Shown here: positions 1,240-41,131 of the stretch, piece after piece | How the letters are laid out: each line of letters begins with the position of its first letter | Position numbering within the stretch: the stretch's first letter is position 1 | NCBI GenBank assembly: GCA_963813025.1 | Contig: CAWEXO010000014.1 | Coordinates: forward strand, 64,001-128,000 | Source: an uncultured Verrucomicrobiae bacterium | Lineage (GTDB): Bacteria > Verrucomicrobiota > Verrucomicrobiia > Chthoniobacterales > JAFAMB01 | Direction: 5' to 3' | Length of the DNA stretch: 64,000 nt | The notes under the pieces: generated by a model | Database searches by the model: none | Seen by the model: the letters and a program-made list of their open reading frames with translations, nothing else | What the model was told of the DNA's origin: nothing | Made by a program: the position numbers and the translations under genes

Positions 1240-1349
1240 CTAGTTCCCCAGAACTCTGCGCGTTCTTTTTGCGGCAAGAAACACTGGATTGATCGCCTTG
1301 GGCATCTCGACGTAGAAAGTAGGCAGCAGTGGGTCGGCAGTTAAGACCG

Positions 1350-1500
1350 GTGTGGCATTGGAGCTTTATGCCCGATAGCTAGTTTGGTTCCGAGCGTTTT
1401 GGTTGTTGCATTAGCGAAGCTCCAGATCGGGTTGTTTGCCGATCTGGAGCTATCCTGTTTAGGAGATTTCTCTGTATCTACCAACTCGGGCCGATGCGCT
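1350..1500 (+). ncRNA. Predicted IS110 bridge RNA (boundaries approximate)
   Basis: Structured ~300-bp non-coding left end; TAGCTAG (1376-1382) equals left target+core; TTAGGAG (1459-1465) equals element right end+core; AACT (1483-1486) is complementary to core+left end; 13-bp hairpin 1418-1451. Confidence 0.65.
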
Positions 1501-1938
1501 GCAGTGTGAAAGCAAGAACAACATCTAACCCAAGAGAGGTATGGCAAAGAAAACCACGACCAAGCGAAAGAACAAATCAAAAACTCACCGGAGTGTTCTG
1601 GAACGGATCAATCTCAAGGCCGCAGGAATCGATATCGGGGCGAATTTTCACCTGGTGGCCATTCCCGAAGACCGCGGCTCAGAAACGGTGCGCAAGTTTG
1701 GCCCTTTTACGAGCGATCTGCAGCGGATGGCTGACTGGCTGAGCGAACACCACATTGAGACCGTAGTGATGGAATCAACGGGGGTTTATTGGATACCGGT
1801 GTTCCAGATTCTGGAGCAGAGAGGGTTGGAGGTAAAATTGGTCAACGCAGCTCATGTCAAGAATCTGCCTGGACGCAAAAGCGACGTCTCGGACTGCCAA
1901 TGGCTTCAACAACTCCACACCTTTGGTCTTTTAAACGG

Positions 1939-3354
1939 GAGATATTGTCAAAAGTTGTGTATCGGGGATGGGCGCATCCTTGTTAAAATGACTGGTTAGG
2001 CAGCTTGTTGGGTTTGTTCTTCGCCATCGACGAATCGGACACCAGTAACTACCTTTGGAATCAGTTCGAAGCCCTGAAGCCGGCGCCAATGCTTTTGGGC
2101 TTCCAGGCCGAGTTTAAAGACCATGGTCAGTGTTGCGATCCGTGAACCGGAACCCTTGGTTCGATGGGTTCGCAGCCGGACGGTAGCGAAGGTCGATTCG
2201 ATGGGATTGGTGGTCCGTAAATGCGGCCAATGTTGCGCCGGAAAGTCGTAAAAGGTAAACAGGACTTCTTTATCTTTCTGCAGGCATTCGCAGGCTTTTG
2301 GGAATTTGATTTGGTAACTGGAGATGAACTGATCGTAGGCTGCCAGAGCTGCTTTGCCGGTCGGCGCCAGGTACATTTCATGGATCAGTTGCTTGGCTTT
2401 GCCCTGAACGCTTTTGGGCATTTTATCCAGGATGTTGGCTGTCTTATGCACCCAGCAACGTTGTTGGGCGATCTGGGCCATATTCTTCCTGCAGAGCGAT
2501 CCAGAAGCCGAGCGAACCATCACCGATGGCCAGTTTCGGCGCGCCGGACAGCCCCAGGCGTTTGAGCTGCCCAAGCAGTTCACGCCAGGATTGAGCGCTT
2601 TCGCGATACCCGTCGACAACAGCTAACAGTTCTTTGGTGCCATCTTCGGTGGCTCCGATCAAGACCAGCACACAGGTTCGCTCTTCGTCGAGCCGGACGT
2701 TGAAATAGACTCCGTCGGCCCACCAGTAAACGTAACGCTTCTGACTCAAGTCGCGCTGACTCCAGGCCTTGTAATCTGCTTTCCCAACCCGCTCTTGAGT
2801 CGGACGATATTGGTTGCTGAAAGCCCACTGGCTCCTTCGCCCAAAATCGCTGTCAACGCTTCGCTGAAATCTCCGGTCGAGATCCCTTTCAGGTAAAGGG
2901 CTGGAATCAGAGCATCGACGCTGGGAGCCCGACGCATATACTTGGGCAGAATCGCACTGGAAAATCGACCCTTGTCACGATGCCGGACCCGTGGCTGACG
3001 AACTCGGATCGGACCAACTCCACTGACGACCTCCCGCTCCGGCAGATGTCCATTGCGTACCACCAACCGCTGTCCATTCTCATCCCGTCGATCCTTGTGG
3101 AATCTGGATATAGTCGATCACCTCATTCTCGATCGCCGCCTGTAACAGCTTCCTGGCTCCTTCTTGCAGCAACTGCTCCAGGAATGGCTTTTCTTCATCT
3201 TTTGCTCGCTCATCAAGCGAGACCACTTTACTCTCTGGCACTGGTGCATCCTTTCTTTTTGGCGCCCTCGAGTGAGGCCGCCGTCGTTTCTTTTTCTTGT
3301 TGAAAGGATGCGCCTTTCTTTTATCTCCTCATACACAAATTTCGGTTATACCTC
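1939..3354 (-). mobile_element. IS256-family insertion sequence (1416 bp)
   Basis: Terminal IRs GAGATATTGTCAAAAGTTGTGTAT / GAGGTATAACCGAAATTTGTGTAT (18/24); 9-bp TSD TTTAAACGG at 1930-1938 and 3355-3363. Confidence 0.95.
1996..3241 (-). pseudogene. IS256 transposase, frameshifted in this sequence
   Basis: Fragments VVRNGHLPERE, LYLKGISTGDF, YWWADGVYFNVR, GDGSLGFW, QRCWVHK, RTTNPIESTF lie in different frames. Confidence 0.9.
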
Positions 3355-4389
3355 TTTAAACGGCTCGTTCCGACCCAAGGACGAGGTCTGCGTCTTGCGC
3401 AGCTTCCTGCGCCTGCGCGACACCTTGGTTAAGGACTGCAGCAGCCATGTGTTACGCATGCAGAAGGCCTTAACCGAAATGAATATCCAAGTGCACCGCG
3501 TGTTGAGCGACATCACCGGTTATAGTGGCATGGCGATGATTCGGGCGATTTTGGCCGGAGAACGCAATCCGCTCAAGCTTGCCCAGATGAAACACCCCCA
3601 AGTGAAAGCATCCACTGATCAGATCGTCAAAGCCTTACAGGGAGATTACCGAGCCGAGCATCTCTTCGCCTTGCAAACGGCCCTGGAACTCTATGACACC
3701 TACCAGCTCAAGATCACCGCCTGCGAAAGCAAGATTGAGCAACAACTTGAGCAATTCGACACTAAACTAGATTTGGAGCAAGCCCTCGAGCAAAGCGGGG
3801 CGGCCCAAGCACGGTCGGCCCAAGTTCGCCTAGCCCTGCAGCGCCGAGCGCATCTGGCCAGCGTTTGTGGTGTCGATCTGAGTCAGTTGCCTGGCTTGAG
3901 CACCTTGGCGGTGGAAGTCATCATTTCGGAAACGGGTTTAGACATGACCTGTTGGAAAAGCGAAAAACACTTTTGCTCCTGGCTTAAACTCTGTCCGGAC
4001 AATCGCATCAGCGGCGGCAAACTGCTCAGTTCCAGCCCCAGAAAAACCAAGAATCGCGCGGCGGCCATGTTCCGGCTGGCGGCCCAAGGAGCCATGCAAA
4101 GTAAGACGGCCATCGGCGCTTTTATCCGCCGCATCAAAGCCCGATTGGGGGCACCCACCGCCATCAACGCCGGAGCTCATAAACTGGCACGCTTGTTCTA
4201 TCGCATGCTCAAGTTCGGAGTTGCCTATGTCGAGCAAGGGCAACTCTACTACGAGAAAAAAATACAAAGACCGCCTACTTCACAATCTCAGCCGACGAGC
4301 CAAAGAATTCGGACTCCAACTCACGCCTCTAGACCCAGCCACGGATTTAGTTTCTTAGGAGCCGTTAGCTGGCGCCAGTGCTAGTGCTA

Positions 4390-5513
4390 GTGCCTAATTG
4401 CGTAAGTTAGTTATATGTATGGCGACTTTCCCCTGGTGTACCTGGGATTTGGTCCATTCGAAGGGAGCCGCATTGTTATTGTAGTTCTTGATGAAGGTGT
4501 CGATGGCGTTGCGCAGCTCTGCCACGCTGGTGAAGTTTGCCCCCTGGAGGGCTTGGCGGCTCAAGATACTAAACCAGATCTCAATCTGGTTGAGCCAAGA
4601 AGCGTGGGTTGGAGTGAAATGAAAATGCACATTGGGGTGAGCCTTCAACCAGCGATCTTGCTTTGGCTTATGGGTCGCAAGGTTGTCTAAGACCACATGA
4701 ATTTCTTTGTCGAGATTTCCGGCAACTACCTGGTTCATAAACTCCAGGAATTCCCGTCGGCGCTGGCGCCGGTAATGACCAGCCTGCACTTGGCCGCTGG
4801 CAATGTTGAGGGCGGCAAAGAGAGTGGAGGTGCCATGGCGCTTGTACTCGTGGCTAAAACCCGTCAGCGCCCTGCCATTGGGCAAGCGAATCCAACCTTG
4901 GGCTCTTTCCAGGGCTTGAATGGCTGGTTTTTCATCAATGGCCAAGATGAGCGCATTCTGGGGCGGATTGAGATAAAGACCGACAATGTCAGCGGCCTTG
5001 CGCACAAACTCCGGATCGGTGGAAATGCACCAGCTGCGGCGCCGTTCCAATTCAATGCCTTGTTGGCGCAAAATGCGCCAGACTTGATCGGAGGAAACAT
5101 CGGCCAGACTCTGCGCCAGCAGTCGCCCATTCCAGCGCCCGTAGCCCGCCGGTGGATCTTCATCCAGCAGCGCCAAGACCCGCTTGACCGTCATTTGATC
5201 ATACTTGGCCGGCTTTCCACTGCGTGGCGCGTCTTCCAAGCCAGCCAGGCCTTGGCGCACAAAGCGCCGCCGCCATTTACTCACCGTCACCTCGGGAATG
5301 CGCAGGCTCTTGGCAATCGCACGTCCACTCAAGCCCGCTGCCGCCTTCAAGATAATCTGACTCCTGACCTTGAGCCGGTGTTCGACCCGTTGCGCTCGAC
5401 TCCAACCCTCCAAGAGCTTGCGGTTTTCCACAGAAAGTTTGATGCGACCCGTTGCCATCCATCCAACAAATCATAATTTTTCATAAATATAAAGAACTAA
5501 AGCAACTAAGTAC
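4390..5513 (-). mobile_element. IS630-family insertion sequence (1124 bp)
   Basis: Terminal IRs about 20/27 identical (GTGCCTAATTGCGTAAGTT.. / GTACTTAGTTGCTTTAGTT..); duplicated TA at 4388-4389 and 5514-5515. Confidence 0.92.
4394..5458 (-). CDS. IS630 transposase (intact)
   Basis: N-terminal HTH; AIDEKP, YKRHGT, VLDNLATHK, SWLNQIEIWF motifs. Confidence 0.95.
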   Translation of the reverse strand: MATGRIKLSVENRKLLEGWSRAQRVEHRLKVRSQIILKAAAGLSGRAIAKSLRIPEVTVSKWRRRFVRQGLAGLEDAPRSGKPAKYDQMTVKRVLALLDEDPPAGYGRWNGRLLAQSLADVSSDQVWRILRQQGIELERRRSWCISTDPEFVRKAADIVGLYLNPPQNALILAIDEKPAIQALERAQGWIRLPNGRALTGFSHEYKRHGTSTLFAALNIASGQVQAGHYRRQRRREFLEFMNQVVAGNLDKEIHVVLDNLATHKPKQDRWLKAHPNVHFHFTPTHASWLNQIEIWFSILSRQALQGANFTSVAELRNAIDTFIKNYNNNAAPFEWTKSQVHQGKVAIHITNLRN

Positions 5514-40118: not shown

Positions 40119-40507
40119 TCAAATATTCCGATAAGTCAAAACTGGTTTCTGCGATGGATAGCGATCATCCGACTCTTTTAGCAGCGAGGCAACCTTTTGC
40201 CGCGGTGCTTCTCGCCGGCGGCCGCTCGCGCCGAATGGGTCAAGATAAAGGTTTATTGCAGGCTAGTCTGGGCACAAACGTCCTGCCGCTCTGGAAACGG
40301 CAGATCTGCGTCCTGCGCAGTCTCGCTCCGGCCCGGGTAATCATTTCCGGAGAGCCCAAGCCGTACTACCCCGATGGAGTCGACCTTTTGATGGATAAGT
40401 GGACCAAAGCAGGTCCGCTGGGCGGCCTCGCGACCTGCCTGGAGGCAGTGACTCAGCCGTTCGCGCTGTTCTTGGCGATCGATTTGCCAATGATCAGCGC
40501 TGATTTT

Positions 40508-40629
40508 CTCCTAAGAAACTGGATAAGGCCGGTCTAATAAAGTTAGCTCTTCCTAAGAGCCAAACAGCCCCCAATCGAGAACTCGGATGGTTTCTTGCCG
40601 CAACAAGAACCCGCAGCGGTTCTGGGGAA
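40508..40629 (-). mobile_element. 122-bp non-autonomous IS110-derived mini-element, copy 1 (includes one CT/AG core)
   Basis: Reverse complement begins TTCCCCAGAACCGCTGCGGGTTCTTGTTGCGGCAAGAAAC (36/40 to 1244-1282) and ends AGTTTCTTAGGAG (13/13 to 4349-4361). Confidence 0.92.
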
Positions 40630-40751
40630 CTCCTAAGAAACTGGATAAGGCCGGTCTAATAAAGTTAGCTCTTCCTAAGAGCCAAACAGCCCCCAATCGA
40701 GAACTCGGATGGTTTCTTGCCGCAACAAGAACCCGCAGCGGTTCTGGGGAA
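40630..40751 (-). mobile_element. 122-bp IS110-derived mini-element, copy 2 (identical tandem copy; closing core at 40752-40753)
   Basis: Base-for-base identical to 40508-40629. Confidence 0.9.
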
Positions 40752-41131
40752 CTAGCTAAGCTTCTCGGACTATGCGAATCCGGTCTCGGTGTCGTGCCCC
40801 AGACCGAAAATGGCTTTGATCCTCTGGCTGCCACCTATCCTGTGACGGCTTTGCCGATCACGCTCCGCCGGATTCAAACAGGGGATTATCGGCTCCAGGA
40901 CTTTGTCGCGGAACTAGTCCAGCAGGGCTTGGTCGTCCTCTACCCGGTTTCGCCAAGAGAAAAGAAGCTCCTGCAGAACTGGAATTGGCCGAGCGATGTT
41001 TTCTTACGGTTTGATCCCGAAAATCGGGAGTGATTTCAGCACGGACTCCGTCACCCCGAAGATCAAGGGGATGGTTACAACCAGCCAGACTGCTATTAGC
41101 TCGGCTGGCGAACTTGGGCGTTCTTCTGATT

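What the first reader, a model, noticed from the sequence alone, without database searches (positions are those of the whole stretch)
40620..40642. Tandem junction reproduces the IS110 circular-intermediate donor joint
Seen: the two identical 122-bp units abut as (minus strand) ...TTCTTAGG-AG-TTCCCCAG..., that is right end-core-left end with a single core. Established: this joint forms when IS110 excises as a circle. Inference: a 122-bp circle is hard to bend, so the element may travel as a 244-bp dimer circle. Alternatives are a second insertion at the regenerated TAGCT-AG left junction or donor-donor recombination. Repeated cycles could grow arrays.
Basis: partly seen in the sequence, partly recalled or inferred. 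Interest (0 to 1): 0.72.

Follow-up and report, generated by a model that had tools for sequence, protein, structure and literature searches.

The report
Tandem miniature IS110 element in mobA
Two identical 122-base, gene-less hitch-hikers of an RNA-guided jumping gene sit head to tail inside a cofactor gene, joined the way that jumping gene joins its own ends, an arrangement already described in Pseudomonas putida.

Summary
Two identical 122-nt units (40508-40629, 40630-40751) interrupt a mobA gene and share one AG core. The joint is right end-core-left end of an IS110 element that has 13 copies in this genome and whose bridge-RNA guides match the sites. The unit is a non-autonomous miniature of it. 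It also occurs here as a monomer and as [IS][mini][mini].

Relatives of 58-126 nt stand alone at 8 of 15 loci, and one identical 120-nt unit sits singly behind three different partners.

Most likely the recombinase made the joint in place, because both junctions stay fully guide-matched. The exact route is unresolved. An occasional dimer circle is not excluded, and no reads span the dimer.

The same three architectures are published for ISPpu9/MITEPpu9. This scan has noted tandem IS110 miniatures in three other genomes.

Newer side results: units as short as 57 nt, and relatives whose target guide equals a sibling's right end and that build mixed arrays. Verdict: new member of a known kind, interest 0.3.

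The parts
40620..40642 (-). Head-to-tail joint: right end, single AG core (40630-40631), left end; same sequence as the circle (donor) joint
40630..40751 (-). Miniature non-autonomous IS110 unit, left-hand copy in element sense (122 nt with its right-end core)
40508..40629 (-). Miniature non-autonomous IS110 unit, right-hand copy (122 nt with its right-end core)
40712..40751 (-). Left-end box, 40 nt shared with the autonomous element (second copy at 40590-40629)
40508..40520 (-). Right end, 13 nt identical to the autonomous element, holding the donor-guide match TTAGG-AG (second copy at 40630-40642)
40752..40758 (-). Left junction: target arm TAGCT plus AG core, a 7 of 7 match to the target guide (9 of 9 with the first two bases of the unit)
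40665..40685 (-). Terminator-like hairpin inside the unit (second copy 40543-40563); consensus match only
40154..40509 (+). 5' part of the interrupted mobA-like gene (molybdenum cofactor guanylyltransferase); the frame now stops after 127 codons
40752..41033 (+). 3' part of the interrupted mobA-like gene
1244..4361 (+). One of the 13 copies of the parent IS110 element, here split by a 1.4-kb insertion (about 1939-3354)
1339..1513 (+). Predicted bridge-RNA region of that parent copy, with target guide TAGCTAG-TT and donor guide TTAGGAG-AT

Best explanation
The 122-nt unit is a gene-less miniature moved in trans by the recombinase and bridge RNA of the resident IS110 (13 copies). Step 1 (shown by sites and guides): a unit entered mobA at TAGCT-AG. 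Step 2 (inferred): the same recombinase then made a second right end-AG-left end joint at this locus. In this clade each guide reads mainly the arm 5' of AG, so after insertion the left junction still matches the target guide and the right junction still matches the donor guide. My preferred route (about 0.3 of the 0.68) is the end-joining (excision) reaction run between the left junction of one sister chromosome and the right junction of the other, or a one-strand version finished by replication; a unit too short to loop easily would favour this over circle release. Re-insertion of a locally released monomer at the left junction (about 0.2) or at the right junction by donor-donor pairing (about 0.18) gives the same letters. 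The unit normally moves as a monomer.
For: Parent is an intact IS110 recombinase (NF033542, 246.6 bits, cut-off 140; DEDD and serine motifs placed). All 13 copies carry one guide set, TAGCTAG-TT / TTAGGAG-AT. 15 sites show T-A-R-C-T left of the core (14 of 15 per column) and no column right of it above 9 of 15. Guide identity is backed by covariation: the 2 nt after the target guide equal the element's first 2 nt in 22 of 28 guide sets (permutation mean 5.0, maximum 14). Joints are biased to miniatures: 3 of 5 mini units follow a right end against 0 of 13 full elements (Fisher p=0.012). A model of uniform re-insertion among 112-160 guide-matching sites gives P=0.001-0.003 for three joints with a mini on the right. 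Both minis of the second array share a private C-to-G change at position 4, as local copying predicts. Full elements are rarely in tandem: 1 of 62 with both ends. Precedent: a tandem cargo repeat in 3 of 96 CazIS110 excision colonies (10.1101/2025.10.25.684509); donor-donor and half-match recombination by IS621 (PMC11208158; 10.64898/2026.08.31.748434); tandem MITEPpu9 copies (PMC8450116).
Against: Numbers are small (3 joints, 3 loci) and two joints lie in one array, so the p-values overstate. No activity, RNA or circle was observed. The three routes leave identical sequence. Full-length tandems exist in G035, so shortness is not required. In G035 the arrays are better explained by a different target guide than by local duplication. 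In IS621, pairing of the handshake guide with its own substrate before exchange blocks the reaction, which counts against the left-junction route. Against that, 1 of 15 natural sites here has TT after the core. Short-read contigs can collapse tandems, which weakens the 1-of-62 control.
Confidence: 0.68

Rival explanations
1. Occasional dimer circle: two monomer circles fused by donor-donor recombination (or a dimer excised elsewhere) and the 244-bp circle inserted once into mobA.
For: One event explains two identical copies. IS621 does donor-donor recombination. Small ISPpu9 junction products reached about 4.6 per cell (PMC12288879). Composite ISPpu9 circles are shown.
Against: The only other mini pair in the genome has a different allele, so no source dimer is in the assembly (80% complete). 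Identical dimers make up 1 of 15 miniature loci. No 244-nt unit was seen at two different sites.
Confidence: 0.15
2. One reading: a 122-bp circle is too stiff, so the element travels as a dimer.
For: 122 bp is below the roughly 150-bp persistence length of double-stranded DNA (recalled, no call). Two of the three loci in this genome hold a pair.
Against: Monomer of the identical unit at C13. 8 of 15 miniature loci are monomers, down to 58 nt, where even a dimer would be 116 bp. An identical 120-nt unit occurs singly behind three different partners. IS621 releases a single-stranded circle, and CazIS110 can bypass circles.
Confidence: 0.03
3. Two independent hops from distant copies that by chance chose the same site, the second using the regenerated left junction.
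For: The left junction is a 7 of 7 target match and right flanks are free. A uniform model expects 0.9-1.3 joints among 18 units.
Against: The same model gives P=0.001-0.003 for three joints all with a mini on the right, and full elements outnumber minis 13 to 5 yet never pair.
Confidence: 0.06
4. Assembly artefact: one unit written twice.
For: Copies are identical. No read or contig spans the dimer. The second array carries many small gaps that look like consensus errors.
Against: The duplication starts and ends exactly at the cores. A second mini-mini joint with another allele exists in the same genome, and mixed arrays exist in G035. Perfect two-copy duplications are rare in this assembly (2 of 12 arrays). 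Megabase contigs resolve 1.7-kb repeats.
Confidence: 0.05
5. Host slippage or unequal crossover duplicated the unit without the recombinase.
For: It would give identical copies in place.
Against: The only homology at the boundaries is the 2-nt core, and all 3 joints in the genome fall exactly on it.
Confidence: 0.03

Closest known systems
MITEPpu9 (ssr9 module) with ISPpu9, IS110 family, Pseudomonas putida (PMC12288879; PMC8450116)
   Same: Gene-less unit with a ~41-43-nt left box and a ~14-16-nt right box taken from its parent; AG core; single AG at the joint; found alone, behind the full element, as [IS][unit][unit] and as orphan tandem pairs. The same three architectures occur here.
   Different: This unit is 122 nt, whereas MITEPpu9 must hold an sRNA of about 180 nt. 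Its interior does not come from the parent (longest match 11 nt). No sRNA is shown and no sigma-70 match was found. The target is TAGCT-AG, not a REP. Circles are shown for MITEPpu9 and untested here. Relationship of the two recombinases was not tested.
IS621 bridge recombinase and bridge RNA (PMC11208158, PMC13626964, 10.64898/2026.08.31.748434)
   Same: DEDD plus serine recombinase (E=2.2e-05 to 8WT6); left-end non-coding RNA with separate target and donor guides; 2-nt core; no target duplication; guide followed by a dinucleotide that matches the incoming donor, like the handshake guide.
   Different: Core reads AG on the coding strand (CT on the other). Only one long guide per loop could be identified, both on the 3' side of the predicted loops; the opposite guides are short or absent. 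The protein is 463 aa against 328.
Expanded IS110 loci with tandem non-coding units and tandem whole elements (10.64898/2026.08.14.744561)
   Same: Tandem non-coding units next to IS110 (n=468) and tandem whole modules (n=437) are reported.
   Different: That survey found complete donor pairs essentially absent at internal boundaries and states that insertion does not regenerate a target. Here every joint is a complete donor pair and the left junction keeps the full guide match.
CazIS110-1 tandem cargo repeat (10.1101/2025.10.25.684509); IS117 tandem insertions (Smokvina et al. 1994)
   Same: Head-to-tail repeats as a by-product of IS110 activity (3 of 96 colonies).
   Different: Those concern kilobase cargo or a full element. 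The IS117 paper was seen as a title in a reference list only (not held).

Membership tests
IS110 family (parent element) | DEDD RuvC-like domain and Tnp domain with catalytic serine | tested here: met
   PF01548 and PF02371 over cut-off; NF033542 246.6 bits; motifs at residues 29, 77, 113, 348
IS110 family (parent element) | Short shared core, no target duplication, sequence-specific target | tested here: met
   AG core and TARCT arm at 15 sites (one row out of register by an indel); one-core empty site restores mobA
IS110 family (parent element) | Bridge RNA with target and donor guides that covary with the DNA sites | tested here: met
   Fold z=-3.9; guides track sites across relatives. Prediction only
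IS110 family (parent element) | Four guide segments (left and right for target and donor) as in IS621 | tested here: inconclusive
   Only one long guide per loop found; no right-arm consensus
IS110 family (parent element) | Bridge RNA expressed; circular intermediate formed | not testable with these tools
   No RNA run or raw reads were laid
IS110-dependent miniature element (MITEPpu9 type) | Both ends of a resident IS110, no recombinase gene | tested here: met
   40-nt left box and 13-nt right end shared; 122 nt in all
IS110-dependent miniature element (MITEPpu9 type) | Dispersed copies at the parent's target, with empty sites elsewhere | tested here: met
   TAGCT-AG at C13 and mobA; intact mobA in G001; in run X1 one contig has the unit at a site that is empty in G000
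IS110-dependent miniature element (MITEPpu9 type) | Mobilisation and circle formation depend on the parent recombinase | not testable with these tools
   Needs an experiment
IS110-dependent miniature element (MITEPpu9 type) | Encodes a small RNA | tested here: inconclusive
   No promoter match, one terminator-like hairpin; only Rfam hit far below threshold (21 v 100 bits)
   8 of 15 miniature loci are monomers; 4 arrays mix unlike units

The most novel reading that the evidence does not exclude
This AG-core IS110 clade reads its sites essentially one-armed, so every insertion leaves two live junctions. Its miniatures shrink to 57 nt, below any plausible double-stranded circle, and so must move by a single-stranded or circle-free route, with tandem joints as the trans product of the end-joining reaction. 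Some relatives have turned their target guide into the conserved right end of sibling elements (TTAGG-AG; G035, L115, L217) and so home onto them, building ordered mixed arrays: an RNA-programmed parasitism of one IS110 on another.
Probability: 0.4. Interest if true: 0.6.

Novelty: new member of a known kind. Interest (0 to 1): 0.3.

Why it matters
As a genome feature it is ordinary: a tandem IS110 miniature that knocks out a mobA copy. It matters in two smaller ways. First, junction PCR or junction reads cannot be taken as proof of a circle when such chromosomal tandems exist. Second, the family offers natural 57-126-nt substrates and natural guide swaps. These make the open question of how IS110 elements leave their site (cut-out, single-strand copy-out or direct transfer) testable by size, and show how little cis sequence a bridge recombinase needs.

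Tried and rejected
Copy number from reads: 5 runs listed, 3 laid, all contigs only; none spans the dimer. The X1 contig that runs from the 5' part of mobA into the 3' part has only 10 letters past the site, under the tool's 31-letter bridging rule, so it is a hint only. X2 and X3 (share 0.06) do not cover the site.

The exact joint pattern found 0 matches in the metagenome collection.

Polarity of growth from the second array: rejected. Its apparent decay gradient is mostly gaps (1 substitution + 2 gap positions; 3 + 7), which look like consensus errors. Its poor left flank is probably not the original target, because ligase homologues continue differently past the site.

A second bridge RNA in G000 aimed at the right end: not found; 13 of 13 complete guide sets are the same (assembly 80% complete).

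The tandem in L097/L098 is a duplication of element plus 126 nt of flank, not a miniature joint.

Rows dropped from the 15-locus tally: G022 C499 (contig end); G022 C115 and G035 C9 (degenerate right ends); G035 C16, C21 (two), C24, C25 (no right end found); G022 C85, G028 C5:782637 and G009 (chance matches). In the guide test 24 of 78 loci lacked the motif and 9 of 37 guide sets had no usable junction.

Handshake pairing as a way to exclude a route: my count is neutral for both junctions, so it was not used as proof.

A word search of earlier findings with eight words gave nothing.

Full report
OBSERVATION. The window holds two identical 122-nt units at 40508-40629 and 40630-40751. Read on the minus strand the locus is TAGCT-AG-[unit]-AG-[unit]-AG-flank, with cores at 40752-40753, 40630-40631 and 40508-40509. 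The pair interrupts a mobA-like gene (PF12804; MobA models). Removing 244 nt restores a 211-aa frame identical at 160 of 211 ungapped positions to the intact protein of G001. One contig of soil run X1 runs from the 5' part straight into the 10 letters that follow the left core, which is the empty site with one core; 10 letters fall short of the tool's bridging rule. No read spans the dimer, so copy number rests on the assembly.

THE PARENT. The genome (G000; 16 contigs, 80% complete) carries 13 copies of a 1692-nt element, one of them an 87.5% variant and two split by other insertions. It encodes a 463-aa IS110 recombinase. Its closest relatives (79-87%) lie in records titled Verrucomicrobiae. 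The unit shares the element's first 40 nt and last 13 nt; its interior has no match to the parent longer than 11 nt. Five miniature units lie at three loci: a monomer (C13:343107), this dimer, and [IS][mini][mini] at C14:36986-38912. In X1 one contig shows the unit's right end beside a flank that in G000 is an empty CTAGCT-AG site, so the unit is probably still moving (one contig, depth about 2).

THE GUIDES. The left non-coding end folds well (z=-3.9) and holds TAGCTAG-TT and TTAGGAG-AT in all 13 copies. These match the target arm plus core and the right end plus core. Across 15 sites the five bases before the core are conserved and no column after it exceeds 9 of 15 (one row out of register). 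Relatives change guide and site together. Of 78 loci, 54 had the motif, giving 37 distinct guides, 28 with a usable left junction. In 22 of those 28 the two bases after the guide equal the first two bases of the element (permutation mean 5.0, maximum 14 in 20,000; kin are not independent). This is the geometry of the IS621 right guide plus handshake guide if the CT strand is taken as top (PMC11208158, passages); that mapping is my inference. The consequence is that both junctions stay matched after insertion: the left to the target guide, the right to the donor guide.

THE DIMER-CIRCLE IDEA. It predicts even numbers of like units. I searched 61 relatives with the dimer (6 with a match, G000 included) and 43 family genomes with a left-end pattern (7 with a match). 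Fifteen loci hold complete miniatures: 3 in G000, 8 in G035, 2 in G022, 1 each in G036 and G064. Eight are monomers (58, 58, 58, 59, 120, 122, ~125, 126 nt), six are arrays, one is ambiguous. Only this locus is an identical dimer. G022 and G036 are fragmented and could collapse tandems, but G000 and G035 hold both forms. In G035 one 120-nt unit is identical at three loci, each time once, behind partners that differ: two 57-58-nt units and a full element; the three 57-58-nt units heading those arrays differ by 6-8 positions. So units of this size move singly. Published routes remove the bending problem: a single-stranded circle for IS621 (10.64898/2026.08.31.748434; abstract and two results sections) and direct transfer for CazIS110 (10.1101/2025.10.25.684509; abstract, passages, one section).

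WHY A DIMER HERE. Three of five minis follow a right end, against none of 13 full elements (Fisher p=0.012). Uniform re-insertion among 112-160 matching sites expects about one joint, and gives P=0.001-0.003 for three with a mini on the right. Both minis of the second array share a private substitution. Among 62 related full elements with both ends, 1 is followed by a left end (short-read contigs weaken this), and that one has a target guide one base from its own right end. This points to a local event biased to short units. I rank end-joining between sister copies first, then local re-insertion at the left or right junction; all give the same letters and none is shown. An occasional dimer circle (0.15) is not excluded. 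Evidence against my reading: counts are tiny, two of three joints share one array, full-length tandems exist in G035, and the second array cannot give polarity because its left flank is rearranged and its differences are mostly gaps.

MIXED ARRAYS IN RELATIVES. G035 has [57][IS][IS][120], two [57-58][120] and [114][120], each joint with one AG. Its element has target guide TTAGGAG and donor guide TTAAGAG. Its chromosomal sites read CTTAGG-AG, which is also the right end of the sibling family, so these arrays grew rightwards by ordinary targeting. L217 shows the same independently: a close relative's right end is followed directly by a different IS110 whose guide is TTAGGAG-CA and whose first bases are CA. 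L115 has the same 7-nt target guide. No such guide was found in G000, so this does not explain the mobA dimer.

WHAT IS KNOWN. ISPpu9 and its ssr9 module (MITEPpu9) have an AG core, boxes of about 41-43 and 14-16 nt, and a single AG at the joint. They occur alone, behind the element, as [IS][unit][unit], and as orphan tandem pairs; circles of the module alone were detected and need the transposase (PMC8450116 sections 16, 17 and passages; PMC12288879 abstract, introduction, one results section, first part of discussion; their supplementary figure of the tandems was not seen). A 2026 survey reports hundreds of tandem IS110 loci (10.64898/2026.08.14.744561, passages and two sections; preprint supplements closed). 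PMC13626964 (abstract and discussion) shows that excision is less efficient than insertion and that the donor loop alone supports it. Eight literature searches showed no listing on IS110 miniatures under 130 nt or on guides aimed at a sibling's right end. These were phrase searches of an open-access library and do not prove absence. This scan has noted tandem IS110 miniatures in three other genomes and this element's bridge RNA in this genome; I read those after forming my view and did not check the other genomes.

VERDICT. Real, correctly described, and a new member of a known kind. The dimer-circle requirement fails its own copy-number test. Interest 0.3; the side results on 57-nt units and right-end-targeting guides would deserve about 0.6 if they hold.

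Noticed in passing
G035:C42:57.2-60.8 kb (L056); L217:1560-1740; L115: IS110 relatives whose predicted target guide (TTAGGAG) equals the right end of sibling elements; they sit directly behind such ends and build mixed arrays.
   Followed up: partly
G035:C30:13316 (L080), C36:56942 (L081); G022:C103, C52 (L035, L039): Miniatures of only 57-59 nt (left box plus right end) present as single insertions; the two G035 copies are identical.
   Followed up: partly
L056:5350-8799: In the four-unit array the donor-type and target-type right ends look swapped by one base between neighbours, as if the exchange point lay a few bases left of the core.
   Followed up: no
L061:3939-4026 (G035:C49): After a 57-nt unit and a short target-like repeat comes another ~64-nt unit with the family's right end but a different hairpin in place of the left box.
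   Followed up: no
G000:C14:36986-38912 (L022): The [IS][mini][mini] array abuts a cut-off gene fragment that looks like a DNA ligase C-terminal domain (label recalled); the other flank does not continue it, suggesting a recombinase-made rearrangement.
   Followed up: partly
window 1939-3354 and 4394-5458; G000:C3:33057-36496: Two parent copies are split by other insertions; the window copy also has a further transposase-like ORF next to it (family labels not tested).
   Followed up: no
G000:C9:93860-95551; window about 4362-4395; L059, L060, L070, L077, L078: Short tandem repeats of target-like 4-6-mers flank several insertion sites; footprints of earlier cycles or simply rich target fields.
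   Followed up: no
L097, L098, L101: A related IS110 is duplicated in tandem together with 126 nt of its left flank, plus a 0.59-kb partial copy: flank capture by one-sided recombination.
   Followed up: partly
G000:C13:723586-724065: A second, full MobA-like domain (PF12804) that might cover for the interrupted gene; not typed as MobA or MocA.
   Followed up: no
G000:C11:552343-552517; C5:184-186 kb; C16:81683-81941: Another perfect two-copy tandem (87 nt) and arrays built on an abundant palindromic repeat; unrelated to this element by sequence.
   Followed up: partly
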